From: Hyphomicrobiales bacterium
GTDB lineage: Bacteria > Pseudomonadota > Alphaproteobacteria > Rhizobiales > JAJFHC01
NCBI GenBank assembly: GCA_965198845.1
Contig: CBDAQD010000001.1
Location: forward strand, 119,778 to 183,777
Direction of reading: 5' to 3'
Length of the DNA stretch: 64,000 bases
This document shows positions 26,943 through 40,081 of the stretch, piece after piece; the first letter of the stretch is position 1; every line of letters starts with the position of its first letter. Under the pieces are notes generated by a model. It saw only the letters and a list, made by a program, of their open reading frames with translations. It was not told the origin of the DNA and did not search any database. The translations under genes and the position numbers were made by a program.

Positions 26943-29759
26943 TCACTCTGCCGCCGCGACCTCGTCCGAAGACTTGTCCTCGGCCTTGTCCGCAGCCTTG
27001 GTCTTAGGCGAGAGAATTGCCATGAGGTGACGACGGATTGCCGCCTGCCGGTTGCCGTTGGTGATCTTCTGACCGGTCAGGTCCTTGACATAGAAGACGT
27101 CGACGGCGCGCTCGCCGAATGTGGCGATATGGGCCGATGCGATGTTGATATTCAGACGGTAGAACGCGCTGGTCAGATCGTAGAGCAGGCCCGGCCGGTC
27201 GAGACCGGCGACCTCGATGACCGTGAAGATGTTCGAGCTCTCGTTGTCGAGCAGGACCTGCGGCTCAACGGTGAACGCCTTGATGCGGCCCTTCGGACGC
27301 GCCTGCTTGGCGATCATCTCCGGCAGGCGCACCTCCCCGCGCAGCGCCTTTTCCATGGTTTCGGCAATGCGCCGGGCGCGGCGCATTTCGTCTTCCGAAT
27401 TCTCGAATTCGCGCTGGATCATGATGGAATCAAGCGCCATGCCGTTGGCGGTCGTGAAGATCTGGGCATCGGCGATATTGGCCCCGGAAGCCGCACAGGC
27501 GCCGGTGAGCACCGCCAGAAGACGCGGGTGGTCGGCTGTGAAGACGGTTAGTTCGGTAATGGCCGTGAACTCATCGGTCTTGACCTCGGTCACGACGGCA
27601 TCGCCGGACTCGCGGGCACGCGTGATGAGCCTGGCATGGTCGACCTGGCGGTCGACCCCGACATTGAGCCAGTAAGGCTCGTAATGCATGTCGAGATAGT
27701 CCTGCATGCGCTTCTTCGGCCAGTCGGCGAAGCGTTCCCTGAACAGGTCCTGCGCCTCGGCGACACGTTCGTCACGGGCGATCGCCGTATGGCCGCCCGC
27801 CAGCACCGGCTCGGCCTCGTAATAGAGCGTGCGCAGAAGCTGGCCCTTCCAGCCGTTCCACACGCCCGGCCCGACGGCCTTGATATCGGCAACGGTCAGG
27901 ATGATCAGGAGCTTGAGTCGCTCCGGGCTCTGCACGATCTCGCAGAAGTCGAGGATGGTCTTGAAGTCGTTGAGGTCGCGCATCTGGGCGAACGTGCTCA
28001 TGACCAGATGGTTCTCGACCAGCCACGCTGCTGTTTCCGTCTCCGCGGCGTCGAGCCCGAAGCGGGGTCCGAGCTTGCGCGCCACCCGGGCGCCGGCGAT
28101 CGAGTGGTCCTCCTTACGGCCCTTGGCGATGTCATGCAGGAACTGGGCGACGTAAAGCGCGCGGCGGCTCTTCTTGACCGTGTGGATGATCTTGTCGGAG
28201 AGCGGGTGTTCGCCGGCCAGCTCGCCGCGGTCGATCTGTGCGAGCACGCCCACCGACTGCAGCAGGTGCTCGTCCACCGTGTAGTGGTGGTACATGTTGA
28301 ACTGCATCATGGCGACGATGCGGCCGAATTCCGGGACGAATTTTCCGAGCACGCCGGCCTCGTTCATCTTGCGCAGAATGGTCTCGGGATCGTTGCGAGA
28401 GGTCAGCGTCTCCATGAACAGGCGGTTGGCTTCCGGATCGTTGCGGACGTCCTTGTCGATCAGCCTGAGTGAACGCGTGACCAGCTGCAACACGTTGGGG
28501 TGGATCGCCACATTGTGTCTGTCGGCCAGGTAGAACATGCGGATCAGGTTGACCGGATCCTTCCTGAAAGCCTCGTCGTCACGCACGGTGATGCGGCCGG
28601 CGTCGAGGTCGAACACTTTCGACTCTGTGATGCCTGACACCTTGCGCTTGCGGAGTTGGGCGAACATCCGGCTCATCATCGGCGCCTTCTTGACCTTCTC
28701 CGCCTCCAGCACCGAACACAGGATACGAGTCAGATCGCCGACGTTCTTGGCGATGAGAAAGTAGTGCTTCATGAAGCGTTCGACGTGACTGAGACCGCCG
28801 TGGGCGGTGTAGCCGAGCCGTTCGGCAAGTTCGGGCTGATGCTCGAAGCCGAGACGGTCCTCTCCCCTGCCCGTCATGAAATGCAGATGGCAGCGCACCG
28901 CCCAGAGGAAGTCCTCGCACTTGCTGAATTTGCGGTATTCCGATGCCGTGAAGACGCCGGCGCGCACAAGCGCCGCGCTGGTCGGCACCCGGTAATAATA
29001 CTTGCCGATCCAGAACAGCGTGTGCAGGTCGCGCATGCCGCCCTTGCCGTCCTTGACGTTGGGCTCGACCTTGTAGCGCGACTCGCCGCTGCGCTGATGG
29101 CGCACGTCGCGCTCGATCAGCTTGGTCTCGATGAATTCCGCGCCGGTTCCGGCGACAACTTCGCTGTCGAAGCGTTCCGCCAGCGACCCGAACAGAGCCT
29201 TGTCGCCCCAGAGGTATCGCGCCTCGAGGATGGCGGTGCGGATGGTAAGATCGGATTTAGACAGCCGCATGCACTCATCGACGCTGCGGGTGGCGTGACC
29301 CACCTTGAAGCCGAGATCCCAGAGCAGATAGAGCATGTACTCGACCACGCTCTCGCCCCAGGGTGTCTGCTTGTAGGGCAGCAGGAACAGGAGGTCGATG
29401 TCGGAGCCGGGCGCCAGGGTGCCGCGGCCGTAGCCGCCCACCGCGACGACGCAGATGCGCTCCGCGGCGGACGGGTTCTTCGCCATGTAGATGTGCGTGA
29501 CGGTGAAGTCGTAAATGACCCGAATCAGCTCGTCCTGGATGTGGGACAGGTTGGCCGCGCAGCGCGTCCCCCTGCCGTCGGCCATGAGGCGCGCCTCGGC
29601 CACCTTGCGGCCCTCAGCTACGGTTTCCTTGAGGTGCTCGAGGACGTGCTTGCGCAGTGCCGTGTCGCTGCCGCCGTGCTGCTTGAACAGGGCCGTCAGT
29701 TCGCCGCGCAGGCGGTCGGCGTCGATCAGGTCCGTCGGATCTTTGATGGCCTCGGCCAT
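26943..29759 (-). CDS. glnD: Bifunctional uridylyltransferase/uridylyl-removing enzyme GlnD
   Basis: 938 aa with a nucleotidyltransferase N-terminus, an HD domain and two C-terminal ACT domains. Confidence 0.96.
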   Translation of the reverse strand: MAEAIKDPTDLIDADRLRGELTALFKQHGGSDTALRKHVLEHLKETVAEGRKVAEARLMADGRGTRCAANLSHIQDELIRVIYDFTVTHIYMAKNPSAAERICVVAVGGYGRGTLAPGSDIDLLFLLPYKQTPWGESVVEYMLYLLWDLGFKVGHATRSVDECMRLSKSDLTIRTAILEARYLWGDKALFGSLAERFDSEVVAGTGAEFIETKLIERDVRHQRSGESRYKVEPNVKDGKGGMRDLHTLFWIGKYYYRVPTSAALVRAGVFTASEYRKFSKCEDFLWAVRCHLHFMTGRGEDRLGFEHQPELAERLGYTAHGGLSHVERFMKHYFLIAKNVGDLTRILCSVLEAEKVKKAPMMSRMFAQLRKRKVSGITESKVFDLDAGRITVRDDEAFRKDPVNLIRMFYLADRHNVAIHPNVLQLVTRSLRLIDKDVRNDPEANRLFMETLTSRNDPETILRKMNEAGVLGKFVPEFGRIVAMMQFNMYHHYTVDEHLLQSVGVLAQIDRGELAGEHPLSDKIIHTVKKSRRALYVAQFLHDIAKGRKEDHSIAGARVARKLGPRFGLDAAETETAAWLVENHLVMSTFAQMRDLNDFKTILDFCEIVQSPERLKLLIILTVADIKAVGPGVWNGWKGQLLRTLYYEAEPVLAGGHTAIARDERVAEAQDLFRERFADWPKKRMQDYLDMHYEPYWLNVGVDRQVDHARLITRARESGDAVVTEVKTDEFTAITELTVFTADHPRLLAVLTGACAASGANIADAQIFTTANGMALDSIMIQREFENSEDEMRRARRIAETMEKALRGEVRLPEMIAKQARPKGRIKAFTVEPQVLLDNESSNIFTVIEVAGLDRPGLLYDLTSAFYRLNINIASAHIATFGERAVDVFYVKDLTGQKITNGNRQAAIRRHLMAILSPKTKAADKAEDKSSDEVAAAE

Positions 29760-29940
29760 GGCGGTCTTCGGCTGTCCTCGTGGTGGCGATTGCGCGGCGC
29801 AAGCGGCGCTGCGCGCTACGGCTCCGGTCTAAAGCATAGCAGCTTCGAGCGAAAGACCGACTATCGAACCGATGCGACCTGCCTATTGAATTGGCAGGCC
29901 GGTGACAGTGGCAAATGTGTTGAAGCGGAATTGCTCCAGC

Positions 29941-30228
29941 CTAACTAATCAGCAGGACGAAAAAAATTGGATAAACAGAAAATGCGCCGAGCGCCTTCCA
30001 ATATTTAGACCGAAATAGGTAGATAACTCCGATAAGAGCGGGAACAAATATCAAAGGATGGAAATACCTACCTGCTCCATACGCTAATGCAAGTGCCCCG
30101 GCCTCAGAGCCCAAAACAAAACCGAATCCGAGCAACGCCAAGAGTGGCAGCGCAACAGAGGTTAGAAATCCCGAGATAACTTCTTTGAGAATTTCAGATC
30201 TTTTGTTTTGACTCATTCTGACACTCAA
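29941..30228 (-). CDS. Hypothetical small membrane protein (3 predicted TM helices) in an AT-rich insertion
   Basis: 95-aa ORF in a stretch of markedly lower GC than the flanks. It has three hydrophobic segments and no recognisable family. Confidence 0.45.
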   Translation of the reverse strand: MSVRMSQNKRSEILKEVISGFLTSVALPLLALLGFGFVLGSEAGALALAYGAGRYFHPLIFVPALIGVIYLFRSKYWKALGAFSVYPIFFVLLIS

Positions 30229-30442
30229 ATTTCTTGAAAACTCATGTTAGCGTGACCCGAAGTTGTTAAGGAATCATGTCCAGTTCACTGGCCAAGATGA
30301 GCGCGATTGTCTGCTGTACAGGCCGGCCAAGAAACGCTATCCAGTCCCCATGCCCGCGCTTCGGCACAGCTTCAACCGAATATCGTGACGTCCGATCAAG
30401 GGCGTCAGCACTGGTTGTGCGGGCGGGTTTTATAATCCTGTA

Positions 30443-30493
30443 AAGCGCCAGATCAGCGTGCACGGCCGGGTTCGATTCCCGGGGCGCCTACCA
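30443..30493 (+). other. tRNA-like 3' element: T-arm, acceptor 3' strand and encoded CCA, with a possible short 5' pairing strand but no anticodon arm
   Basis: CCGGGTTCGATTCCCGG is a canonical T-stem-loop (30466-30482), followed by GGCGCCT-A-CCA. Upstream AAGCGCC (30443-49) can pair 6/7 with the 3' strand. No D or anticodon arms are recognisable. Confidence 0.5.
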
Positions 30494-30764
30494 TTACCTC
30501 CTTCACTCGCTTATTTGCAGTTTACGTTAACTGGAGATTTCATAGTCAATTTCGTTGCATTTGAGCAACATTACTGGTGCATATGTGCACAAACGGCGAA
30601 TTTCTGCCATGACAACTGTTGCCAAGGCGCACGATCTGCAGTATCTCCCCGCTCCCCGTCACGTCTGTCTGAATGACTGTGGGCCGAGTTCCGGATACTC
30701 GCCCGGTGCGGACCGCCCTGCGGATGCCGTATGCCGACATCGGATCAGACGATCGGGAGACCCT

Positions 30765-30816
30765 GCATATGCAGCTCGGTCGGCGAGCGTTTCGGGTTCG
30801 ACTCCCGGCATATGCT
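30765..30816 (+). other. tRNA-shaped minihelix lacking the anticodon arm (acceptor stem, D-arm, T-arm)
   Basis: GCATATG-CA-GCTC-GGTCGGC-GAGC-GTT-TCGGGTTCGACTCCCGG-CATATGC-T has a 7-bp acceptor stem, a D stem-loop with GG and a canonical TpsiC arm. Only 3 nt sit where the anticodon arm and variable loop should be. Caveat: the acceptor pairing comes from the palindrome GCATATGC. Confidence 0.4.
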
Positions 30817-30817
30817 C

Positions 30818-30888
30818 AGCGATGTAGCTCAGTGGGAGAGCACCAGACTTTAATCTGGCGGACGAGGGTTCAACTCCCTCCATCCTCA
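30818..30888 (+). tRNA. tRNA gene (Lys-UUU-like anticodon region, but aberrant)
   Basis: TA-GCTCAGTGGGAGAGC D-arm, CCAGA-CTTTAA-TCTGG anticodon arm and GAGGGTTCAACTCCCTC T-arm. An antisense pseudo-ORF MEGVEPSSARL is typical of tRNA genes. In my reading the anticodon loop is one nt short, and the 5' acceptor strand (AGCGATG) mispairs with the 3' strand (CATCCTC) at its first 3 nt. It may be a pseudo-tRNA or a junction-damaged gene. Confidence 0.6.
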
Positions 30889-31429
30889 AGAGGCCTTGAA
30901 AGCCTTTGGGTTAAAACCCGACACGTTTAGGTCGTGTTCAAAATTAGGGGTTTCGGGGCCGGCCTGCGAGGCCGGCCGAACGCCGCTCATGGCCTTTGGG
31001 TCGTGGCACGGCACGACGCCGGCACCGCCCTTCGCCGGCGGCCCGCGCACCGGAAGACGGTGAAGGCGGGTCCGGACCAGGCGGCATGCGGATCTTCCGC
31101 AGGGCCACCCCGTCCGGGCTCCCCGACACCCGCTCGCCGGAGCCCGCCGCCAGCCGAGGTCAGCCGGCCCCGGGGCTCATTTGTCTGACGGGCAGAGCCT
31201 TGACCCGTCACGCTTCCGAAGGCGCAGGCCTTGGGAAACACCATGCCGGTGAACCGGCGCACGGAATTCGAACCGGACGGCAATGCGTCCCCCGTCACCA
31301 CCCCGGGGGAGCCACGCGGACCCGTCTGGACATTGAAGAGGGTGGATCAGCCTGACTATCAGGCGCCAACACGAGAAAGGACGTTAGAGCGCATGACATA
31401 GCGACGCTGACGACGAAAGGAGAAGACCC

Positions 31430-32572
31430 ATGTTGAAGATTTTTGAGAGGATGCTCGGTTTCGAACGCGTCCTTATCCGAGAGAACGAGCGCGCGGTCGC
31501 GCTCCACAAGGGACGTTTCATGGGAATCCTAGGTCCGGGTGAACACCGGCTGCCGAACCGCGGCAGGCGGCTCGAGATCGAAAAGCACGATCTGACACGC
31601 CCGGAATTCGTCTCGGCGTTTGATACGGCGCTGTACCGCGAGATGCCGGATGAGGCGGCACAGCACCTCACCGAGGTGCGGACCGGCCGGCACGAGGTCG
31701 CGCTCGTGTTCCGCGACGGGCGTCTGCACGGCATCCTGAAGCCGGACGGACGTTCGGTGTTCTGGACCGATGCCGGACCGTGGACCGTCGAAACCGTCGA
31801 TGTAGCCGACGAGCTCGAGGTACCGGTCGATATCGCCAAGCGGCTGATCCGTGCGGCGAAGCTCGACCGTGTCGTCCAGTTCGATGTGGGTGAGGGCCAG
31901 ACCGGTTTGCTCCACGTCGACGGCGAGTTCGTCCGGACGCTCGGGGCCGGTGCCCACATGTTCTGGAACGTCGGCCGTAAGGTTCAGGTCAAGCTGATCG
32001 ACACCCGTCGTCAGGCCCTTGACGTGGCCGGGCAGGAGATCCTGACCAAGGATCGTGTCACGATCCGGATCAACGTTGCCGCGGAGTTCCGCGTCACCGA
32101 TCCGGTGAAGGCCGCAACCGAGGTCAAGGACTTCACCGAGACGCTCTACAGGGCGCTGCAGTTCGCGTTCCGCAAGACGCTCGGCACCAAGACGCTCGAC
32201 CAGATCCTTGAGAACAAGGTGACGGTCGACGCCGAGGCTGCCGAGAAGGTCCGCGCGGAGATGGCCGACATCGGTGTCGAGGTCGGTGAGATCGCCCTGA
32301 AGGACGTGATCCTGCCGGGCGACATGCGCGAGATCCTGAACCAGGTCGTGGCCGCGGAGAAGGAGGCGGAAGCCAACGTCATCCGCCGGCGCGAGGAGAC
32401 GAACGCCACGCGTTCGCTGCTTAACACGGCCAAGGTCATGGCCGAGAACCCGGTCATGCTCCGGCTCAAGGAGCTCGAGGCTCTCGAGCAGATCGCCGAG
32501 AAGGTTGAGCGCCTGACGGTGCACAACGGTACCGGCGGGCTCATGAACGACCTCGTCAAGCTGCGCGACTGA
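31430..32572 (+). CDS. SPFH/band-7 domain protein (stomatin/HflK-like, no obvious TM anchor)
   Basis: 380 aa whose C-terminal half matches the SPFH fold plus a coiled coil (ILTKDRVTIRINVAAEFRVTDPVKAA...DIGVEVGEIALKDVILPGD). AAAGGAG SD lies 7 nt upstream. A GC-rich hairpin follows the stop at 32601-32630. Confidence 0.8.
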   Translation: MLKIFERMLGFERVLIRENERAVALHKGRFMGILGPGEHRLPNRGRRLEIEKHDLTRPEFVSAFDTALYREMPDEAAQHLTEVRTGRHEVALVFRDGRLHGILKPDGRSVFWTDAGPWTVETVDVADELEVPVDIAKRLIRAAKLDRVVQFDVGEGQTGLLHVDGEFVRTLGAGAHMFWNVGRKVQVKLIDTRRQALDVAGQEILTKDRVTIRINVAAEFRVTDPVKAATEVKDFTETLYRALQFAFRKTLGTKTLDQILENKVTVDAEAAEKVRAEMADIGVEVGEIALKDVILPGDMREILNQVVAAEKEAEANVIRRREETNATRSLLNTAKVMAENPVMLRLKELEALEQIAEKVERLTVHNGTGGLMNDLVKLRD

Positions 32573-32991
32573 CGCGGCCCGGGAGGTCACCGGAAAAGAT
32601 GCCGCCCCCTGGCGATGTGCGGGGGGCGGCGTTATCAACAATATGAGTTGATTCACTGTGCACCGCTATCGGCGCGAATGAATAATCAAAATTATTATAT
32701 TCGCCGGCAGGCAATCAGTTCTTATCTCGCGAGCGCACGCTTCGGTCTGCAGTAGATTTTAACGCGGAGTTTTTGACAGTAAATGGGCCTCTAAGAGGTT
32801 CAGGCCTATTTCGAACCTCAGATATTGCCGCGCTTACTTGTCGATAAACTGATTTTCGGATTTCACTCCGATCCATATGCGTTCCTACCTTCTCCCTCGG
32901 CATCAAGAGTTCCTCCCCGGATGAACGCGCGTTAACGAATCCTAATGATTGTTAACGAATCGATGATATCAGTCGCGAATCACCGGTTCCA

Positions 32992-33010
32992 CTGCAATTT
33001 GCAGTATAAT
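32992..33010 (+). promoter_or_regulatory. Palindromic operator (CTGCAATTTGCAG) abutting a TATAAT -10 box, 35 nt upstream of the deaminase-fusion ORF
   Basis: Perfect 13-bp palindrome at 32992-33004 immediately followed by TATAAT (33005-33010). The ATG is at 33045. Two direct copies of GTTAACGAATC (32929-39, 32952-62) lie just upstream. Confidence 0.5.
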
Positions 33011-33044
33011 GAATTAGAATTGTGTAAATTTTGGGCCCCGCTAA

Positions 33045-34628
33045 ATGAATTTAAACGAGCAAAGTTCACGACCAGAATTGTTGATCGGACTTGTAGGTCC
33101 CATTGGCGTGGACATGGATACAGTGACTGAATGCTTGAAGGAAGAACTTGGTAAGGTTCGTTACAAATCAGAAGTGATACACGTCACTACGATAATGCGT
33201 GCAATTGAAAATGCGGAATCAGTTGATGAGAACGATTATGCCGCCAAATATCATTCTCTAATCGACCTCGCGGATGAATTTCGAAAAAGATGTAAGGACA
33301 ACTCAGCCCTAGCTGGCCTCGCTATGACAGAAATACGCAGTCGACGAGAGGCCCTTACATCCGAACTGAGAACCAAATTCGACGCCAAAGACGATGATGT
33401 TATTCCATCAGAGTCTACCGCCTACATTATCAGGCAATTTAAGCGACCTGAAGAAATCAAACTTATGAGAACTACGTATGGAAGAAAATTCATTCAGTTT
33501 TCTGTTTATTCCAGCCGAAGAGAGCGAATTGAGCGGATAACAGGAAAAATTCAAAAAAACAGCAGACGCGCCTTAGAGCGATCAGATTGTGAATCTGAAG
33601 CCACAAATCTGGTACAAAAGGATTTTAATGAAAAGAATAATGAATTTGGCCAACGAATAAGTGATGTATTTCACACTGGTGATGTGTTTGTTTACGGGAA
33701 CGATAAGAAAGATATCTCTCATACAGTTTCGAGATTCATCAGAGCATTCTTTGGTGACAATTCAATTTCGCCAAATCGAGATGAATACGGCCTTTACACC
33801 GCTGCGGCATCGTCTCTGAGGTCTGCCGACCTTTCCCGACAGGTTGGAGCGGCGATTTTTTCAGACGCAGGCGAAATTATCTCGATGGGTAGCAACGAGG
33901 TGCCGAAGTCCGGCGGTGGAACTTACTGGCACGGAGATGAAAATCTTCACAGAGATGTCGATGAGGGTCACGACCCAAATCACAAGAGGAAGACTGAGAT
34001 CCTATTTGATTTTATATCTCAATTGGCAAAGCTGAAGCGCTTGGAAGGAGTTGGAGACACAGAAGCCGAGATCGATAATTTTGCGGAGGAATTACTGAAA
34101 GAAGACCCAATTAAGAATTCACTGCTTATGGACATAATCGAATTTGGACGTATGACACATGCGGAAATGTCCGCGATCATGGATGCAGCGCGAACAGGTC
34201 GATCTACAAAAAACGCAACTCTATTTTGCACGACTTTTCCCTGTCACATGTGCGCGAAACACATAGTAGGTGCTGGCATAAAGCGTGTCGTTTTTTTGGA
34301 GCCATATCCCAAGAGTTATGCCGACGACCTCCATCGGGATTCCATTACATTCGAAGATCGATCGCCTGAGAAGGTTCTCTTCGAACCATTCATTGGAATT
34401 TCGCCAAGGCGGTACCGCGACATATTTGAGAAAGGCAGAAGAAAGGACAGTGAGGGGAACTTAGTTGAGTGGTATGAAGGCGAACCACTTCCTAGAATTG
34501 AAGATAGAAGCGCTGCATACCTGTCCAACGAGCAACCGGCAATTGCATCCAGCCTAGGCGACATTTTCGAGGAGCTTCAGGCTCAAGTATCCCCTAAGCC
34601 CACTCGTGACTCTGATCAACCGAATTAG
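33045..34628 (+). CDS. Kinase-like N-terminal domain fused to a dCMP/cytidine-deaminase-fold domain (candidate nucleotide-depleting anti-phage deaminase)
   Basis: 527 aa. The C-terminus carries the CDA zinc motifs (THAEMSAIMDAAR ... FCTTFPCHMCAKHIVGAGIKRVVFLEPYP), close to the dCMP deaminase and ComEB consensus HAE..PCxxCA..AGI. The N-terminus LIGLVGPIGVDMDTV resembles a degenerate dephospho-CoA-kinase/dNMP-kinase P-loop (IGLTGGIGSGKSTV). The gene sits in a low-GC cassette. Confidence 0.75.
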   Translation: MNLNEQSSRPELLIGLVGPIGVDMDTVTECLKEELGKVRYKSEVIHVTTIMRAIENAESVDENDYAAKYHSLIDLADEFRKRCKDNSALAGLAMTEIRSRREALTSELRTKFDAKDDDVIPSESTAYIIRQFKRPEEIKLMRTTYGRKFIQFSVYSSRRERIERITGKIQKNSRRALERSDCESEATNLVQKDFNEKNNEFGQRISDVFHTGDVFVYGNDKKDISHTVSRFIRAFFGDNSISPNRDEYGLYTAAASSLRSADLSRQVGAAIFSDAGEIISMGSNEVPKSGGGTYWHGDENLHRDVDEGHDPNHKRKTEILFDFISQLAKLKRLEGVGDTEAEIDNFAEELLKEDPIKNSLLMDIIEFGRMTHAEMSAIMDAARTGRSTKNATLFCTTFPCHMCAKHIVGAGIKRVVFLEPYPKSYADDLHRDSITFEDRSPEKVLFEPFIGISPRRYRDIFEKGRRKDSEGNLVEWYEGEPLPRIEDRSAAYLSNEQPAIASSLGDIFEELQAQVSPKPTRDSDQPN

Positions 34629-34652
34629 AATCTTCCCGCGATCACGCCACGA

Positions 34653-35399
34653 TCACTTCGCGTCGTGGAAGATGATGCCGAGGGTGTGGCGGCGGCCGGA
34701 TCGCAATCGGCTCACGCCGTGGCGCATGTTGACCCGGTATATGCCGCGTTTTCCTTCGACCGGCCGGTGGTGGACCGGGAAGATCGCCGCATCGCCGCGT
34801 GTGAGCGGCACGACCTCCGCACGCGACTGCATGCGCGGACGCTGCTCGGTCAGCACGAATTCGCCGCCGGTGAAGTCTTTGCCCGGATCCGACAGCAGCA
34901 CCGCAACCTGGAGCGGAAAGACAAGCTCACCGTAGACATCCTGGTGAAGACAGTTGTAGTCGCCCTCGCCATACTGCAGCAGCAGGGGCGTCGGCCGTGT
35001 CTGGCCGGCGTCGTGACAGCGCCCGAGATAGACCTCGAGCGTCTCCGGATAACGCGTCTCCAGTTTCATCGCTTCGTTCCACCGGTTGGCGATGCGGGCG
35101 AGGGGAGGGTAGAGCGTCTCGCGCAATTCGGCGACGACCTCCGGCAGCGGATAGGCGAAGTACTTGTACTCGCCGCGGCCGAATCCGTGCCGGCTCATAT
35201 GGATATGGCTGCGGAACGGCGCCTCTTCCGGATAGAGGCCGGCGACCGCCCGGCACTGTGCCGCAGGCAGCAGCTTTTCTATCAAAGCAAAGCCGGAATC
35301 TTTCAGTTCGCCTTCGATGGCCGTCCAATCTGTCGCATGCATGGCTTTTTCCGCGCAAAGTCGCCGTGAGTCCCTTGACTTCATATTGGGGCTCCACAT
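34653..35399 (-). CDS. 2OG-Fe(II) oxygenase superfamily protein (prolyl-4-hydroxylase-like)
   Basis: HxD...H iron triad candidates (LHQDVYGE ... MRHGVSRL) and a P4Hc-like fold. Start uncertain, with an alternative Met at MHATDW. Confidence 0.7.
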   Translation of the reverse strand: MWSPNMKSRDSRRLCAEKAMHATDWTAIEGELKDSGFALIEKLLPAAQCRAVAGLYPEEAPFRSHIHMSRHGFGRGEYKYFAYPLPEVVAELRETLYPPLARIANRWNEAMKLETRYPETLEVYLGRCHDAGQTRPTPLLLQYGEGDYNCLHQDVYGELVFPLQVAVLLSDPGKDFTGGEFVLTEQRPRMQSRAEVVPLTRGDAAIFPVHHRPVEGKRGIYRVNMRHGVSRLRSGRRHTLGIIFHDAK

Positions 35400-35550
35400 A
35401 TACCCGCCACCCGTTTCCTGCGCCCGTTGCGGCTCGCGGTCCGTGGTGAGGGATTTCAGGCGGAAAAATTAACCGTCGCGGCACGATTTTGGATGCATTC
35501 GTCTGCGCCGGGAGTAAGGTTTATAGAGACATAAAAACAGGACCAAAACC

Positions 35551-35742
35551 ATGTCCTATTATGCTGCAGCTCTGGATCGGGCGATCGAAGTGTTCGGCAC
35601 CCGTGACAGGGCTGAAGAATGGCTCGAAAAAATGAGCAGCGATCTAGGGTCGGCGCCGAAGAAACTTCTGGATACCAAAGACGGCTTTGAGCGGGTGTTG
35701 CGGCATCTGCACTCGGTCGATATTGCGCTCAATCTGCACTGA
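35551..35742 (+). CDS. ParS/MbcA-like antitoxin domain protein (DUF2384), apparently orphan
   Basis: 63 aa whose C-terminus WLEKMSSDLGSAPKKLLDTKDGFERVLRHLHSVDIAL matches the DUF2384 toxin-binding domain consensus of RES-Xre antitoxins (WL..P...LGG..PLDLL.T..G...V...L..IE.G). No RES-domain gene follows. The 3' end overlaps the convergent acyltransferase gene. Confidence 0.55.
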   Translation: MSYYAAALDRAIEVFGTRDRAEEWLEKMSSDLGSAPKKLLDTKDGFERVLRHLHSVDIALNLH

Positions 35743-37207
35743 GCGGCTGCTCCGCCTGACCTGTCGCTGACGCTGCGCGCGGCTGCGCAACGGCAACGCG
35801 CGGTTTGAGCAGGTGGGCGATCGAATTGGCGTAAAACGCGAGCAGGCCGGCGTCGTCGCGGTTTGCCCGATAGGCTGCTCCATCCGCAACCACCAGCCTC
35901 CGCATGGTCAGCATGCGCAAACCCACCTCGATTCCATATTCCAGGTCAGCCCGCGGCACGTGGACGTGGGCTCCGTTGGCTTTGAGACGCGTGACCAGAT
36001 CGAGCACGCGCGCTTTCAGTTCCAACGCGGTGAAGGACCGGTCCGGATCAGCCATGAAGACCGTCGCCACCATGGAAACCGGCAGGGCAGGGACGATGGC
36101 CGCCACCGCCGCCATGAGCCTGTGGCCGAGCTGCTCGATCTCTGCGTTGCGCTTGACGTCGCCGGCCGTCCGGAAGTCGACGTTGCGGGCGGCAAGATAG
36201 CGCCGCAGGGAAACCGGCTCGCCGAAGCTGACGCAGGCATAGCCGTTCCGGTACCAGCGTCCGCGCAGCGCAAGGCCGATATTGCGCAGGACGAATTGCA
36301 GCACGGCCAGCGGCGAGAAATGGAATTCCGCCTTGCCGTCGTTCGTGGTGGCGGTCGTCAGCACCCGGTCCTCAAGAATGCGGTCGTAGTTGAGCGCAAC
36401 GGGAATGAACACCACGTCCCGCGCGCCGTCGGGATCGAAGCCCGAAACCATGTAACTGAGCAGACCAAACTTCGGCACTCTTATACGGCCGTCGCGGCTC
36501 AGGCCACCTTCCGGAAACACAGCCTGGGTTACGCCGGAGCGGGTCGCCATGTGCACATAGCGGGACAGTACCTTGCGGTAGAGCGGATCTCTGGAATTGC
36601 GGCGGATGAAGTAGGCGCCCATGGACGCGATCAGGCGGCGCAGCCCCCAGATCCGGGCCCATTCGCCAACGGCATAGCTGAGCGCGGACGACGCTGCCGC
36701 CAGATAGGTGACGAGCACATAGTCCATGTTGGAGCGGTGGTTGATGACGAAGACCACGGCTGAGTCGGGTGCCACCTTGCTCAGCGATTCCTCATTCAGA
36801 TACCCCAGACGCACCCGGTAAAGCAGCGTCGAGAGCCAGCGAGCGCCACGCGTGCCGATCCGGAAATACGCATAGGCGCTGAAGGACGGCACGATCTCGC
36901 GGGCATACCGGCGCGCGCGCTCCATGGCGACGTCGCGTGGAACGCCCGCCTCGTTGGCATGTCTTTCGACCGCGTGCAGCACCTCATGGTCATGGAGGAC
37001 CTGGTCGATGAGAACCTGGCGGCGGGTCAGCTTGAACGGCTGGATATGCAGATGAAGCCGAGCGTTCAGTTCTTCGATCGCCCGGTTGGCGCGGCGGCGC
37101 AATGCCCAGCGCACGCTCGGAATGAGCAGCCGGTCGAGCAACGCCCACATGGCGAGGACCGCTGCCAGCACGACCACCCACATCGGTAGCGTGACAGTTG
37201 TGAACAT
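35729..37207 (-). CDS. Glycerol-3-phosphate/lysophospholipid acyltransferase family protein (PlsB-like)
   Basis: 492 aa with an N-terminal TM segment, the HX4D motif (VINHRSNMDYVL) and the acyltransferase blocks FPEGGLSRDG. Confidence 0.8.
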   Translation of the reverse strand: MFTTVTLPMWVVVLAAVLAMWALLDRLLIPSVRWALRRRANRAIEELNARLHLHIQPFKLTRRQVLIDQVLHDHEVLHAVERHANEAGVPRDVAMERARRYAREIVPSFSAYAYFRIGTRGARWLSTLLYRVRLGYLNEESLSKVAPDSAVVFVINHRSNMDYVLVTYLAAASSALSYAVGEWARIWGLRRLIASMGAYFIRRNSRDPLYRKVLSRYVHMATRSGVTQAVFPEGGLSRDGRIRVPKFGLLSYMVSGFDPDGARDVVFIPVALNYDRILEDRVLTTATTNDGKAEFHFSPLAVLQFVLRNIGLALRGRWYRNGYACVSFGEPVSLRRYLAARNVDFRTAGDVKRNAEIEQLGHRLMAAVAAIVPALPVSMVATVFMADPDRSFTALELKARVLDLVTRLKANGAHVHVPRADLEYGIEVGLRMLTMRRLVVADGAAYRANRDDAGLLAFYANSIAHLLKPRVAVAQPRAASATGQAEQPLSAD

Positions 37208-37249
37208 CCGCTGCTCCCTTCACCGCGAGAGTGCAGTGCCGGACGCGGG

Positions 37250-40081
37250 TCAGGCAAGATCCTTTCGCTGAGCAGCCTTAAGCCGGTAAATCAGGTCAAG
37301 CGCCTCCCGCGGCGTCAGATCATCCGGCAGGATTTCGTCCAGCGCCTCATCTAAGGCGCTTCTGCCAGGCGCGCGCGGTGCCGCCGCCCCCTGAGGCCGG
37401 GCGGCTGTGAACAGGGGCAGGTCGTCGACCAGGTCCGCCTTGGGACTGTTCTGCTCGCCGCGCTCCAGAGCGGCCAGCACATCGGCCGCCCGGTCGATGA
37501 CGACCGGCGGCAGCCCCGCAAGCTTGGCGACCTGGATACCATAGGAGCGATCCGCCGATCCGGGTGCGACCTCATGCAGGAAGATAACCTCGCCGTCCCA
37601 TTCCTTGACTTTCATCGTGGCGTTGGCGAGCCGGGGCAGGGTCTCGGCAAGTGCGGTCAGTTCATGGAAGTGGGTGGCGAACAGGGCCCGGCACCGATTG
37701 ACCTCGTGCAGATGCTCGACGCAGGCCCAGGCAATCGACAGACCGTCGAAAGTTGCGGTGCCGCGGCCGATCTCGTCGAGGATGACGAGGGACCGCTCGC
37801 CGGCCTGATTGAGGATGGTGGCGGTCTCGACCATTTCGACCATGAAGGTGGAGCGGCCGCGCGCCAGATCGTCCGCCGCGCCGACCCGGCTGAAGAGCCG
37901 GTCGACCACACCGATATGCGCATCCGCTGCGGGAACGAAGGATCCCATCTGCGCCAGTATCGCAATGAGGGCGTTCTGGCGCAGGAATGTCGACTTACCC
38001 GCCATGTTCGGACCGGTCAGGAGCCAGATCGAGCGGCTTTCGGCCTCGCCGTCGCCTGTCGGCACGGAGAGATCGCAGTCGTTGGGCACGAAACCCGCCT
38101 CGCCGCCGGCGGCAAGTGCCGCTTCGACAACCGGATGACGGGCTGCCGTGATCCGGAACGCGAGGCTGTCGTCGACCCTGGGTCTGGTCAGGCGCACGCG
38201 CTCGGCAAGATCGCCGAGGGCCGCCGCGACATCGAGCTCGGCCAGAGCGTCGGCAACGGAACCGATGTTCCGGCTGGCCGCATCGACCGCCGCCACGAGC
38301 CGGTCGAAAATCTCCAGCTCGATACCGACGGCACGGTCGGCCGCAGACGAGATGCGCGACTGCAGATCGGCAAGCTCGGCGGTCGTAAACCGCATCGCAT
38401 TGGCCATGGTCTGGCGATGGATGAAGTCTGCGTCATGTGGCGGGTTCATCAGGGTCGCGCCGTGCTGTGCCGAGACCTCGATGAAATAACCCAGCACGTT
38501 GTTGTGCTTCACCTTGAGCGACTTGATGCCCGTCGCTTCCGCATATTGCGCCTGCAGACCGGCGACGATCTTGCGGCTCTCGTCGCGAAGGCGCCTGTTC
38601 TCGTCGAGCGCCTCGTCGTAGCCGGGCCTGACGAAGCCGCCGTCGCGCGCCATCAGCGGCAGCTCATCGTCAAGCGCCACCTCGAGGAGCTGTTCAAGAC
38701 TCTCGTCGGCCGACCCCAGAACCGCGAGCGCCGAGGCGACCTCATCGGGCGGCGGCGCCAGGCCGGCCTTGTCCGTCAGCGCCGGCAATTCGCGGGCGAC
38801 GGAGAGGCCGTCACGCAGCGCCGCCAGATCGCGGGGACCGCCGCGACCGACGGTGAGCCGCGCAAGCGCGCGGGCGAGATCAGGGCACTGGCGCAGGGCT
38901 TCGCGCATCCGCCCCCGGATCTCATAGGCTTCGACGAAGAAGTCGACCGCGTCCAGCCGCCGGTTGATCGCCGTTGGATCGGTCAGCGGCGCGGCGAGGC
39001 GCGCAGCCAGCTTGCGCGCGCCGGATCCGGTGACCGTGCGGTCGACCACCGACAACAGGGAGCCCTTGCGTTCGCCCGAAAGCGTGCGCACGAGTTCCAG
39101 ATTGGTCCGTGTCGCCGGGTCGATCATCATGGCCGTGCCGCGGCGCTCACGCACCGGCGGCGCCAGGACCGGCATCCGCCCGACCTGGGTGACGGCGACA
39201 TAGTCGACCAGGGCACCGCAGGCGGCGATCTCCGGGCGGCTGAAGTCGCCGAAACTGTCGAGGGCGGCCACCTTGAAGACGTCCTTCAGGCGGCGCTCGG
39301 CGGTCTGGCTGTCGAAGCGGCTCGAGGCCAACGGCGTGAGGGCCGTGTCGAAGCCGATCCAGACTTCGCCAAATTCCGGATCCTGATAGAGCGACTCGGG
39401 CAGAATGATCTCGGACGGTTCGAGCCGGGCCAGATCCGTGGCGAGCGCGCGCGGCCCCGTCTCCGTGACCATGAGCGTGCCGGTCGAGATATCGACCCAG
39501 GCGAGCGCCAGAGGCCGATCGTCGCTTTTGACCCGGGACACCGCCGCCAGGAAATTGTGCCCTCGGGTGTCGAGCAGACTGTCTTCGGTGAGCGTTCCGG
39601 GTGTGACGTGGCGGACGATCTCACGGCGCACGACGGCCTTGGCGCCGCGCTTCTTGGCTTCCGCCGGATCTTCGGTCTGCTCGCAGACGGCGACGCGAAA
39701 TCCCTGCTTGATCAGGCGCTCGAGATAATCCTCCGCGGCATGAACCGGAACCCCGCACATGGGAATGTCGTCACCCTGGTGACGGCCGCGCTTGGTCAGC
39801 GTGATACCGAGCGCCTCCGACGCGACGACCGCGTCGTCGAAGAACAACTCGTAGAAGTCGCCCATGCGGTAGAACAGCAGACTGCCGGGATTGGCGTCCT
39901 TGATCTCGTGATACTGCGCCATCATCGGCGTCATGGCGGCGGTCTTGGCCTCTGGCTTTGCCGGCGCCGGCGCATCATCGCGCGGTGAATCGGCGACCGG
40001 TTCCGGAGTGCACGGCGGCGTCTGGGCTGCAGCAGAATTCGACATGGCCGGAACCCTACCAGATGGAGCCCCGGCGCTCAC
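37250..40081 (-). CDS. mutS: DNA mismatch repair protein MutS
   Basis: The conserved N-terminus [34 protein letters not shown] begins at about 39934, preceded by a possible roughly 50-aa extension. Walker [10 protein letters not shown] and the HTH C-terminus are present. Confidence 0.93.

What the first reader, a model, noticed from the sequence alone, without database searches (positions are those of the whole stretch)
29760..37250. About 7.5-kb mosaic insertion between glnD and mutS
In the Rhizobiales genomes I recall, glnD and mutS are direct neighbours (mutS-glnD-murJ-trpS). Here they are separated by AT-rich DNA with a small membrane-protein ORF, tRNA-like elements, an SPFH protein, the deaminase cassette, a 2OG oxygenase, an orphan ParS-like antitoxin ORF and a PlsB-like acyltransferase. 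GC content alternates sharply (about 45-50% around 29.9-30.8 kb and 32.6-34.6 kb versus above 60% elsewhere), which suggests several acquisition events at a tRNA-associated hotspot. No integrase remains.
Basis: inference. Interest (0 to 1): 0.6.

Follow-up and report, generated by a model that had tools for sequence, protein, structure and literature searches.

The report
Phage-defence cassette beside tRNA-like slipin leader
The stretch between glnD and mutS is mostly an old gene block shared with related bacteria; only a 2-kb low-GC cassette carrying a known anti-phage dCTP deaminase is a recent arrival, and the "tRNA-like elements" are a conserved, apparently undescribed tandem tRNA-mimic RNA that always precedes the neighbouring slipin gene.

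Summary

- **Shared block.** A close relative (L084, about 86-92% nucleotide identity) has the same order: glnD, leader, slipin, PF09859 oxygenase, 63-aa ParS fragment, PlsB-like acyltransferase, mutS. These genes have host-like GC3 (0.77-0.85; the 63-aa ParS fragment 0.61) and diverge in step with glnD and mutS.
- **Variable pieces.** Only two low-GC pieces differ from L084:
  - 32630-34649 (2,020 bp) is an intact DcdV-type anti-phage dCTP deaminase with 415 bp of its own upstream DNA. It sits in the 97-bp spacer between the convergent slipin and oxygenase genes.
  - 29867-30465 is an indel next to glnD that holds an ORF with no homologues.
- **No tRNA hotspot.** None of 80 Hyphomicrobiales loci has a tRNA gene between mutS and glnD. 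There is no integrase and no att-type repeat.
- **tRNA-like elements.** They belong to a tandem tRNA-mimic family found upstream of slipin in all 75 other loci with enough upstream sequence. Covariation is strong. Module 1 usually has G3·U70 and an encoded CCA. The "anticodons" are unconstrained. I found no Rfam family and no paper describing it.

The parts
26943..29759 (-). glnD (PII uridylyltransferase), left flank; 94% aa identity to L084.
   Evidence: Pfam GlnD_UR_UTase/HD/ACT; tblastn.
29867..30341 (.). Low-GC (44-50%) segment absent from L084. It contains a 95-aa ORF with no homologues, 29941-30228(-).
   Evidence: blastn breakpoints. GC3 0.41. No homologue among 5.8 billion proteins or 1.84 billion representatives.
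30342..30493 (+). Element 'a': a structured RNA-like element ending in a T-arm, GGCGCCT and ACCA. It is 91% identical in L085. L084 keeps only the 3' 28 nt.
   Evidence: Alignment A1; alifold and identity; restricted to window, L085 and L084.
30554..30647 (+). Conserved palindrome GTTGCATTTGAGCAAC (30554-30569) and promoter-like TTGCCA-N17-TATCTC (30619-30647) upstream of the leader RNA.
   Evidence: Conserved blocks in the family alignments. Inferred, not shown.
30655..30764 (+). 5' domain of the leader RNA, with two covarying hairpins.
   Evidence: alifold and pair counts on 53 sequences.
30765..30818 (+). tRNA-like module 1. In this lineage it is reduced: 7-bp acceptor GCATATG/CATATGC, D arm and T arm, no anticodon arm, and 'TCA' in place of N-CCA.
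   Evidence: Family model R1 hits 30762-30887 at 87.9 bits, E 4e-24. 96% identity to L084.
30819..30888 (+). tRNA-like module 2: full cloverleaf with a short acceptor and a 6-nt loop CTTTAA. L084 has CGTTTAA and L085 has CTGTTAA.
   Evidence: ARAGORN and Rfam. 97% identity to L084.
30889..30980 (+). Three to four small hairpins following module 2; 98% identical to L084.
30981..31429 (+). GC-rich (68-77%) non-coding spacer, then a highly conserved 74-nt stretch before the slipin ATG. No + strand intrinsic terminator.
   Evidence: No codon periodicity. Substitutions against L084 are not 3-periodic, 22/14/15. Terminator scan.
31430..32572 (+). Slipin-family SPFH protein: 380 aa, no TM segment, three N-terminal beta repeats, an SPFH core and a long helix.
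32601..32629 (+). Slipin terminator hairpin. This is the last base shared with L084 before the cassette.
   Evidence: Junction sequences.
32630..34649 (+). Window-specific 2,020-bp low-GC cassette: 415 bp non-coding upstream DNA (candidate promoter or DifV-like regulator), the anti-phage dCTP deaminase gene (33045-34628) and a 21-bp tail. L084 has 37 bp here.
   Evidence: PADLOC dCTPase 1.5e-162. NCBIfam NF041025 465 bits, cut-off 400. HAE and PCHxC motifs invariant.
34653..35399 (-). PF09859 (Oxygenase-NA) 2OG-Fe(II) oxygenase. Conserved in L084 (89% aa) and L085 (71%).
35551..35742 (+). 63-aa ORF equal to the C-terminal half of a ParS/Xre antitoxin, with no RES toxin. It is under purifying selection between the window and L084, and absent from L085.
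   Evidence: NCBIfam NF049845 positions 55-106 of 112, 39.6 bits, below the cut-off of 90. Codon-position identities 93.7/100/82.5%.
35729..37207 (-). PlsB/GPAT-like acyltransferase, 42 bp downstream of mutS. Conserved in L084 (92%) and L085 (72%).
37250..40081 (-). mutS, right flank.
   Evidence: Pfam MutS I-V.

Best explanation
The glnD-mutS interval is a clade-specific block of resident genes with two small strain-level indels. It is not one island.

**Shown**
- The slipin gene with its roughly 0.9-kb structured leader, the PF09859 oxygenase, the ParS-C-terminal mini-ORF and the PlsB-like acyltransferase are collinear with a close relative. They have host composition.
- The only clearly recent horizontal arrival is a 2,020-bp low-GC cassette (32630-34649). 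It lies in the short spacer between the convergent slipin and oxygenase genes. It replaces the U-tract of the slipin terminator and the oxygenase terminator hairpin.
- The cassette encodes an intact single-gene DcdV-type anti-phage dCTP deaminase.

**Inferred**
- From the family: on phage infection the enzyme deaminates dC nucleotides, starving phage DNA synthesis of dCTP. In uninfected cells it is probably held off by a labile regulator encoded in the co-inserted 415 bp, by analogy with DifV.
- Insertion was by recombination without an integrase.

**The tRNA-like elements**
- They are the local copy of a tandem tRNA-mimic RNA that is part of the slipin transcription unit across Hyphomicrobiales.
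- Module 1 is typically a tRNA-Ala-like acceptor (G3·U70, encoded CCA) with an unconstrained anticodon loop.
- Module 2 starts at that CCA, so RNase P cleavage at module 2 would release module 1 with a finished 3' end. This is inferred.
For: **Collinearity**
- blastn of L084 against the window gives three collinear blocks. They are broken only at 29867-30465 and 32630-34649.
- L084 gene order is trpS-murJ-glnD-slipin-oxygenase-ParS fragment-GPAT-mutS. L085 has slipin-DUF1287-oxygenase-GPAT-mutS.
- Amino-acid identities of the block genes (89-97% to L084; 71-86% to L085) track glnD and mutS (94%/94%; mutS 79%).
- GC3 is 0.85, 0.77 and 0.79 for slipin, oxygenase and GPAT, against 0.42 for the deaminase.

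**Cassette**
- The empty-site spacer in L084 keeps both terminators.
- PADLOC dCTPase 1.5e-162. NCBIfam antiphage_deaminase 465 bits, above the 400 cut-off.
- Catalytic HAE and PCxxC motifs are invariant.
- Homologues in Labrys and Rhodopseudomonas are likewise solitary 41-49% GC cassettes, with low-GC upstream DNA, in 65-67% GC hosts.
- DcdV/DifV biology: bioRxiv 10.1101/2021.03.31.437871.

**tRNA-mimic family**
- ARAGORN finds the modules upstream of slipin in 69 loci.
- 97.4% of cells are paired, 26 of 38 pairs show compensatory change, and the covariation score is 0.481 against 0.170 (shuffled) and at most 0.131 (slid).
- G3·U70 in 33 of 52 sequences and CCA in 43 of 52.
- A covariance model built without the window hits it at 87.9 bits. 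It hits 75 of 75 slipin loci with enough upstream DNA. In 1.62 Mb of control loci it hits only genuine tRNA-Ser, at 22 bits or less.
- Against L084, modules and hairpins are 96-98% identical while third codon positions are 68-75%.
Against: - No genome closer than about 86-92% nucleotide identity could be retrieved, so the timing and direction of each indel rest on two relatives.
- The cassette has no target-site duplication, inverted repeats or recombinase, so the insertion mechanism is unproven.
- No DifV-like RNA could be demonstrated. The upstream 185 nt folds no better than shuffles (z -0.48). Upstream regions of homologues share no sequence.
- For indel A, a single deletion in L084 is more parsimonious than an insertion here. 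L085 shares element 'a' with the window.
- In the window lineage, module 1 lacks both the anticodon arm and an intact CCA. The Ala-acceptor idea therefore cannot apply unchanged to this copy.
- Co-transcription of the leader with slipin is supported only by the absence of predicted terminators.
Confidence: 0.8

Rival explanations
1. One reading: the whole 29760-37250 interval is a mosaic genomic island, built up by repeated integrations at a tRNA-linked hotspot, with the integrase since lost.
For: glnD and mutS abut in 17 of 80 Hyphomicrobiales loci. None of the interval's genes occurs between them in any of the 80. GC alternates sharply. tRNA-like sequences are present.
Against: - L084 and L085 share the block, with host-like composition and core-like divergence.
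- No tRNA gene lies at this junction in 80 relatives.
- No att-type direct repeats.
- The tRNA-like elements are conserved upstream of slipin in unrelated neighbourhoods.
Confidence: 0.05
2. The deaminase cassette is ancestral to the clade and was deleted in L084 and replaced in L085. It would then be a loss elsewhere, not a gain here.
For: Only two relatives are available. L085 carries a different gene (DUF1287) at the same junction, so this spot turns over. Indel A is probably a deletion in L084.
Against: - L084's 97-bp spacer contains both complete convergent terminators, as expected of an undisturbed site. The window lacks the U-tract and the oxygenase terminator.
- Cassette GC3 is 0.42 against 0.8 for the host, so it is unameliorated.
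- The nearest protein homologue is only 57% identical, and such homologues sit as isolated cassettes in unrelated loci.
Confidence: 0.12
3. The tRNA-like elements are ordinary tRNA genes or decaying pseudo-tRNAs with no function of their own.
For: Each module scores above the Rfam tRNA gathering threshold (52-60 bits). Module 2 loops usually look like real anticodon loops, CU-NNN-AA. In the window lineage module 1 has lost its anticodon arm.
Against: - The anticodon differs between orthologous copies. Module 1 loops are 4-8 nt.
- Module 2 has only a 3-5 bp acceptor and no CCA. The modules abut or overlap.
- Stems nevertheless covary strongly.
- The element is 96-98% identical between window and L084, where synonymous sites are 68-75%.
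- Position relative to slipin is fixed in 75 of 75 loci.
Confidence: 0.05
4. The leader is purely a cis-acting processing or stability element of the slipin mRNA. Its tRNA shape recruits RNase P or Z, and there is no trans-acting or aminoacylated product.
For: Constant same-strand position 304-544 nt upstream of the ATG. No predicted terminators in between. Anticodon arms are dispensable in several lineages. This lineage lacks an intact CCA.
Against: G3·U70 is the commonest state at pair 3:70 (33 of 52) while neighbouring pairs change freely. An encoded CCA is kept in 43 of 52. Neither is needed for mere endonucleolytic processing.
Confidence: 0.35

Closest known systems
Anti-phage dCTP deaminase / DcdV-DifV (Tal et al. 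2022 and Hsueh et al. 2022, from my own knowledge; preprint 10.1101/2021.03.31.437871, read)
   Same: About 530-aa two-domain protein: a conserved N-terminal kinase-like region and a C-terminal dCMP-deaminase domain with HAE/PCxxC. It scores above the NCBIfam equivalog cut-off and matches the PADLOC model. It is a single-gene cassette preceded by same-strand non-coding DNA.
   Different: Only 57% identical to the nearest database protein. No DifV-like RNA could be recognised. Defence activity is untested. The cassette lies between two convergent resident genes, not in a defence island or prophage.
Core-gene-flanked defence hotspots (e.g. E. coli pan-genome defence islands, PMC10121019, listed but not read)
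   Same: A short intergenic spot between conserved genes holds different cargo in related genomes: the deaminase here, nothing in L084, DUF1287 in L085. No recombinase is present.
   Different: Only three genomes were compared. Only one of the three cargoes is a known defence gene.
tRNA-gene-targeted genomic islands
   Same: Compositionally foreign DNA lies close to tRNA-like sequence, including a T-arm/ACCA fragment.
   Different: There is no intact tRNA target, no repeat of its 3' end, and no integrase. The tRNA-like sequences are conserved in relatives and belong to the slipin unit.
tRNA mimics: the tmRNA tRNA-like domain, YrlA (bacterial Y RNA) and tRNA-Ala
   Same: - D- and T-loop signatures of an L-shaped fold.
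- Module 1 shares G3·U70, an encoded CCA and a dispensable anticodon with tmRNA.
- The modules give weak partial hits to the YrlA model (28-36 bits).
   Different: - Two modules in tandem, inside a roughly 330-nt structured RNA upstream of an SPFH gene.
- No tag reading frame, and ARAGORN finds no tmRNA.
- Far below the YrlA gathering score (69 bits), and no Ro60 gene nearby.
- The discriminator base is variable.
mutS-rpoS polymorphic region of enteric bacteria (from my own knowledge)
   Same: A junction next to mutS that carries different lineage-specific genes in related taxa.
   Different: Different partner gene and different taxa. Here the variation is mostly between genera, with lineage-conserved metabolic genes.

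Membership tests
tRNA-targeted integrative genomic island | Intact tRNA or tmRNA gene at one boundary | tested here: not met
   ARAGORN finds one non-canonical tRNA-like element in 64 kb. There is no tRNA between mutS and glnD in 80 relatives.
tRNA-targeted integrative genomic island | Direct repeat of the tRNA 3' end at the far boundary (attL/attR) | tested here: not met
   The repeat finder gives only a 16-nt T-arm match between two different tRNA-like elements 326 bp apart. Junction sequences show no duplication.
tRNA-targeted integrative genomic island | Integrase or recombinase gene, or a remnant of one | tested here: not met
   No such Pfam domain in any ORF of at least 60 aa in the interval.
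tRNA-targeted integrative genomic island | Whole element absent from close relatives | tested here: not met
   L084 and L085 carry most of the interval. Only 32630-34649 and 29867-30465 are missing from L084.
Anti-phage dCTP deaminase (DcdV type) | Scores above the curated family threshold | tested here: met
   NCBIfam NF041025, 465 bits against a cut-off of 400. PADLOC dCTPase 1.5e-162.
Anti-phage dCTP deaminase (DcdV type) | Zinc-deaminase catalytic motifs HAE and PCxxC, plus a conserved N-terminal kinase-like domain | tested here: met
   H372-A-E374 and P399-C-H-x-C403 are invariant in 10 homologues. The N-terminal G15-x-V-G-P-I-G-x-D23 block is also invariant. Pfam dCMP_cyt_deam_1 covers residues 246-418.
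Anti-phage dCTP deaminase (DcdV type) | Cognate inhibitory RNA (DifV) encoded immediately 5' on the same strand | tested here: inconclusive
   415 bp of low-GC non-coding DNA came in with the gene. It shows no distinctive fold and no similarity to the upstream regions of homologues. The literature reports no conservation either.
Anti-phage dCTP deaminase (DcdV type) | Depletes dCTP and protects against phage | not testable with these tools
   Needs cloning, phage challenge and dNTP measurement.
Canonical tRNA gene | 7-nt anticodon loop with an anticodon conserved among orthologues | tested here: not met
   Window loop is 6 nt. Orthologous copies read as Lys, Asn, Met, Thr, Ile, Arg and others. 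Module 1 loops are 4-8 nt.
Canonical tRNA gene | 7-bp acceptor stem with room for 5' and 3' processing between neighbouring genes | tested here: not met
   Module 2 acceptor is 3-5 bp. The modules abut or overlap by 0-3 nt.
tmRNA | Detected by ARAGORN or the Rfam tmRNA models; contains a tag reading frame | tested here: not met
   No tmRNA reported by ARAGORN. Rfam tmRNA models give 11-13 bits against a gathering score of 47, over the T-arm only.
YrlA / bacterial Y RNA | Reaches the Rfam gathering score (69 bits) | tested here: not met
   28-36 bits, partial matches.
YrlA / bacterial Y RNA | Encoded next to a Ro60 (rsr, TROVE) gene | tested here: not met
   No TROVE domain among the proteins of the interval, nor among the called neighbours in L084-L087. 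The rest of the genome was not searched.
RES-Xre (ParST/MbcTA) type II toxin-antitoxin | Full-length antitoxin with an adjacent RES toxin gene | tested here: not met
   The ORF matches only positions 55-106 of 112 of the antitoxin model, at 39.6 bits against a cut-off of 90. Its 3' end overlaps the convergent acyltransferase gene, and there is no RES ORF.
SPFH / stomatin-like (slipin) proteins | Band_7 domain and SPFH fold followed by a long helix | tested here: met

The most novel reading that the evidence does not exclude
The tandem tRNA-like RNA upstream of slipin is an undescribed functional RNA class. Module 1 would be a tmRNA-like, non-decoding acceptor: G3·U70, an encoded CCA, and release by RNase P cleavage at module 2. 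AlaRS could charge it. It would act together with the downstream soluble SPFH protein. That protein's beta-repeat, SPFH and long-helix build resembles a miniature major vault protein, which would make the pair a bacterial vault-like ribonucleoprotein or a tRNA-status sensor for it.
Probability: 0.2. Interest if true: 0.85.

Novelty: new variant of a known kind. Interest (0 to 1): 0.55.

Why it matters
**For the original question.** A GC-mosaic stretch between two usually adjacent core genes need not be one island. Here it reduces to one ordinary single-gene defence cassette plus resident genes. The cassette adds a divergent dCTP deaminase (57% identity to the nearest relative) at a clean, recombinase-free insertion site. 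That site could be used to study how such minimal defence genes move.

**The unexpected result.** A selectively maintained pair of tRNA mimics is tied to one SPFH gene. It is present in all 75 slipin loci that carry enough upstream DNA, plus the window and L084, across Mesorhizobium, Nitratireductor and many uncultured Hyphomicrobiales. Automatic annotation will mislabel these as tRNAs with odd anticodons or as pseudogenes. If module 1 is aminoacylated or bound by the slipin assembly, it would be a new use of tRNA mimicry in bacteria. It would also give a handle on the unknown function of soluble bacterial SPFH proteins.

Tried and rejected
- **Source contig.** Exact-sequence look-ups with the deaminase, GlnD and P0001 found nothing on record.
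- **Plasmids and phages.** blastn of the whole interval gave only single-gene hits to the oxygenase and acyltransferase on plasmids, and nothing in phages.
- **Viral contigs.** Two pattern scans for the tRNA-like junction found nothing.
- **Junction repeats.** A search for direct or inverted repeats found nothing beyond chance.
- **Self-similarity.** blastn of the non-coding stretches against the window and 80 loci showed no repeats.
- **Small ORF.** The 95-aa membrane ORF has no homologue in either large protein library. It may not be a gene.
- **Pseudogene in the GC-rich spacer.** Rejected: no codon periodicity, and substitutions are not 3-periodic.
- **tmRNA and YrlA.** Both identities for the tRNA-like elements were considered and rejected on score and context.
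- **DifV-like RNA.** Neither a distinctive fold nor conservation was detected.
- **Literature.** Searches for tRNA-like together with slipin, SPFH, stomatin, Band-7 or Mesorhizobium, and for 'tandem tRNA-like', found nothing relevant.

Full report
**1. Observation**

All the listed features are present.

- Pfam, NCBIfam and PADLOC identify the following:
  - glnD (26943-29759, -)
  - an SPFH/Band_7 protein (31430-32572, +)
  - a 527-aa deaminase (33045-34628, +)
  - a PF09859 2OG oxygenase (34653-35399, -)
  - a 63-aa ORF matching only the C-terminal toxin-binding domain of Xre/MbcA/ParS antitoxins (35551-35742, +)
  - a PlsB/GPAT-like acyltransferase (35729-37207, -)
  - mutS (37250-40081, -)
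- The 95-aa three-helix ORF at 29941-30228 (-) has no family hit.
- ARAGORN and Rfam find one tRNA-like element at 30818-30888 (53.8 bits) with a 6-nt anticodon loop.
- GC falls to 47-50% at 29.8-30.6 kb and 38-49% at 32.6-34.6 kb.
- GC3 is 0.41-0.42 for the small ORF and the deaminase, against 0.77-0.86 for their neighbours. The 32-35 kb stretch is the strongest tetranucleotide outlier in the window.
- No integrase or transposase domain is detectable.

**2. The junction across the order**

A GlnD-based scan of one genome per species returned 80 Hyphomicrobiales loci. The best has only 66% GlnD identity.

- mutS lies upstream of glnD on the same strand in about 52 loci. The gap is under 200 bp in 17, and 0.45-8.8 kb in the others.
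- Where the gap is filled, the genes are conserved within lineages and are metabolic or regulatory:
  - Cu-ATPase, DUF305 and aldo-keto reductase in Mesorhizobium
  - ADH and OsmC
  - GGDEF-EAL
  - ABC transporters
  - malic enzyme, with an inverted mutS, in Brucella and Phyllobacterium
- None of the window's genes occurs in any of these gaps.
- No tRNA gene lies between mutS and glnD in any locus.

The junction is therefore evolutionarily plastic, but it is not a tRNA-linked integration site.

**3. Close relatives decide the question**

The slipin search found proteins 94% and 86% identical, and their contigs were retrieved.

- L084 has trpS-murJ-glnD-slipin-oxygenase-ParS fragment-acyltransferase-mutS-malic enzyme.
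- L085 has slipin-DUF1287-oxygenase-acyltransferase-mutS.
- blastn of L084 against the window gives three collinear blocks at 86-92% identity. They are interrupted only at window 29867-30465 (11 bp in L084) and 32630-34649 (37 bp in L084).
- Amino-acid identities of the block genes are 89-97% to L084 and 71-86% to L085. These match GlnD and MutS.
- Third codon positions are 68-75% identical in glnD, the acyltransferase and the oxygenase.
- Among 82 other slipin loci, none has the oxygenase, acyltransferase, mutS or glnD nearby.

The block is specific to this small clade, and within the clade it is resident rather than recently acquired.

**4. The cassette (32630-34649)**

- *Identification.*
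  - It matches the PADLOC dCTPase model at 1.5e-162.
  - It scores 465 bits against the NCBIfam equivalog 'anti-phage dCTP deaminase', whose cut-off is 400.
  - The HAE and PCHxC zinc-deaminase motifs and an N-terminal G-rich block are invariant among ten homologues.
  - The nearest database relative is 57% identical, and many homologues are named anti-phage dCTP deaminase in Rhizobiales.
  - By sequence, PDB holds only dCMP-deaminase domain relatives.
- *Junctions.*
  - The left junction follows the slipin terminator hairpin (32601-32629).
  - The right junction is 3 bp before the oxygenase stop codon.
  - L084's spacer holds that same hairpin with its U-tract, plus the oxygenase terminator hairpin. 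This is an intact empty site.
  - No target duplication or terminal repeats are visible.
- *Family habit.* In Labrys and Rhodopseudomonas the homologous gene is also a solitary 41-49% GC cassette, with 300-500 bp of low-GC upstream DNA, in a 65-67% GC chromosome.
- *Regulator.*
  - In Vibrio, DcdV is inhibited by DifV, a 152-174-nt RNA encoded immediately 5' on the same strand. DifV is not conserved in sequence among homologues.
  - The 415 bp that came with this gene is the obvious candidate, but I could not substantiate it.

**5. Indel A (29867-30465)**

- The left 475 bp is low-GC and holds the ORF with no homologue among 5.8 billion proteins or 1.84 billion representatives.
- The right 124 bp is the 5' part of element 'a' (30342-30493). 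This structured element ends in a T-arm, GGCGCCT and ACCA.
- Element 'a' is 91% identical in L085, with a compensatory change. L084 retains only its 3' 28 nt, with a degraded T-loop.
- One deletion in L084 explains both boundaries better than two independent events. This segment was therefore probably acquired before the window and L084 split.

**6. The tRNA-like elements**

- *Conservation.*
  - The roughly 950 bp upstream of slipin is conserved in L084 (91.6%), in L085, in Nitratireductor sp. XY-223 and in Mesorhizobium amorphae. In the last two genomes slipin has entirely different neighbours.
  - A metagenome scan with slipin gave 80 more loci.
  - ARAGORN finds one or two same-strand tRNA-like modules at a fixed place upstream in 69 of them. 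The predicted anticodons are spread across the code, and many loops are 6 or 8 nt.
- *Structure.* On 52 non-redundant sequences, excluding the window and L084:
  - 97.4% of cells are paired, against 81.5% in shuffles and at most 50% when partners are slid.
  - 26 of 38 pairs show compensatory change.
  - The covariation score is 0.481, against 0.170 (shuffled) and at most 0.131 (slid).
- *Module 1*:
  - It has a 7-bp acceptor, with G1-C72 in 41 of 52, C2-G71 in 39 of 52 and G3·U70 in 33 of 52.
  - An encoded CCA is present in 43 of 52.
  - The discriminator base varies, and anticodon loops are 4-8 nt.
- *Module 2*:
  - It begins 0-3 nt after that CCA or overlaps it.
  - Its acceptor is only 3-5 bp, and it has no CCA.
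  - Its loop is 7 nt in 50 of 52, usually CU-NNN-AA.
- *Specificity of the model.*
  - Covariance model R1 hits the window at 30762-30887 (87.9 bits, E 4e-24) and L084 at 95.4 bits.
  - In 1.62 Mb of control loci it hits only genuine tRNA-Ser, at 22 bits or less.
  - It hits 75 of 83 slipin loci. The eight misses have under 400 bp of upstream sequence.
- *Selection.* Against L084, module 1 is 96% identical, module 2 is 97% and the following hairpins are 98%. This matches first and second codon positions rather than neutral sites.
- *Upstream features.* The family shares a GTTGC..GCAAC palindrome, a TTGC-N17-TAT promoter-like motif and a 5' domain with two covarying hairpins.
- *Downstream features.*
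  - The GC-rich spacer is non-coding.
  - No + strand intrinsic terminator is predicted before slipin in three loci.
- *This lineage.* Module 1 has lost its anticodon arm and has 'TCA' in place of N-CCA. Module 2's loop is CTTTAA here, CGTTTAA in L084 and CTGTTAA in L085.
- *Prior description.* Rfam holds no family for this beyond the generic tRNA model and weak YrlA hits of 28-36 bits against a gathering score of 69. Six literature searches found nothing.

**7. The slipin protein**

- The AF2 model has mean pLDDT 83. It shows three N-terminal five-stranded beta repeats, an SPFH core and a long helix, with no transmembrane segment.
- Foldseek aligns 406-466 columns to vault proteins at E 4e-11 to 4e-8.
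- The vault-like build, next to a small structured RNA, is a lead only.

**8. Other residents**

- The 63-aa ParS-like ORF differs from L084 at 0 second, 4 first and 11 third codon positions. It is therefore a maintained mini-gene and not debris. It lacks the N-terminal half of the antitoxin and any RES partner.
- The oxygenase and the acyltransferase behave as ordinary resident genes.

**9. History and mechanism**

The order below is inferred.

1. The clade ancestor placed slipin with its leader, the oxygenase and the acyltransferase beside mutS.
2. The ParS fragment and the low-GC ORFan segment were added before the window and L084 split. L084 later deleted part of the latter.
3. The dCTP deaminase cassette entered the slipin/oxygenase terminator spacer in the window's lineage alone. 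This was probably by recombination rather than site-specific integration. L085 holds DUF1287 at the same spot.

The defence mechanism is taken from the characterised family and was not tested here.

**10. Verdict**

- The island itself is ordinary.
- The tandem tRNA-mimic leader of slipin appears to be new and is the part worth following.

Noticed in passing
window 30342-30493 (+); L085 1264-1424: Element 'a': a roughly 150-nt structured element ending in a T-arm, GGCGCCT and ACCA. It is 91% identical between the window and L085, far above the surrounding non-coding DNA, and shows one compensatory pair change. It is truncated in L084 and absent from all other loci. It is not recognised as a tRNA or tmRNA.
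   Followed up: partly
L123, L132, L148, L164, L167; L157 and L161: Some family members have lost module 2's anticodon arm (T-loop spacing 45-52 nt; R1 scores 52-63 bits). L157 and L161 carry an extra T-arm/CCA mini-helix after module 2.
   Followed up: no
window 35551-35742 (+); L084 12139-12330: The orphan 63-aa ParS-C-terminal ORF is under purifying selection (no second-position changes, 11 third-position changes). It overlaps the 3' end of the convergent acyltransferase gene by 14 bp. It may act as stand-alone immunity against RES toxins.
   Followed up: partly
L085 3568-4257: The slipin/oxygenase spacer that holds the deaminase here holds a DUF1287 gene in L085 and nothing in L084. This makes it a micro-hotspot between convergent terminators.
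   Followed up: partly
L081 4700-6560; L082 4400-6566: Anti-phage dCTP deaminase genes in Labrys and Rhodopseudomonas are also isolated 41-49% GC cassettes in 65-67% GC chromosomes. This suggests either persistent low GC or frequent transfer for this family in Rhizobiales.
   Followed up: partly
L001-L080, upstream of glnD: The mutS-glnD gap ranges from 11 bp to more than 8 kb across Hyphomicrobiales. Its cargo is lineage-conserved, for example a Cu-ATPase/DUF305/aldo-keto reductase set in nine Mesorhizobium loci. In 23 loci no mutS was found in the upstream sequence available (full ~10 kb in about 14; under 9 kb, some under 1 kb, in the rest).
   Followed up: partly
window 31356-31429: The 74 nt before the slipin ATG are nearly invariant in the window, L084, L085 and Nitratireductor (3 differences from L084). 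This is more than a ribosome-binding site needs.
   Followed up: no
window 32920-32965: A direct repeat, GTTAACGAATC twice about 22 bp apart, lies in the cassette's upstream DNA. A TATAAT box lies about 35 nt before the deaminase ATG. These are possible operator and promoter elements.
   Followed up: no
window 37250-40081: The mutS ORF runs 943 aa from a GTG. Relatives' genes were called at 894 aa, yet tblastn aligns the full 943 aa to L084 at 94%. The true start is uncertain.
   Followed up: no
window 11-13 kb, 47-49.5 kb, 50.5-52.5 kb: Other compositional outliers in the window: GC 0.55-0.58 at the first two and 0.67-0.69 at the third, with raised tetranucleotide distance.
   Followed up: no
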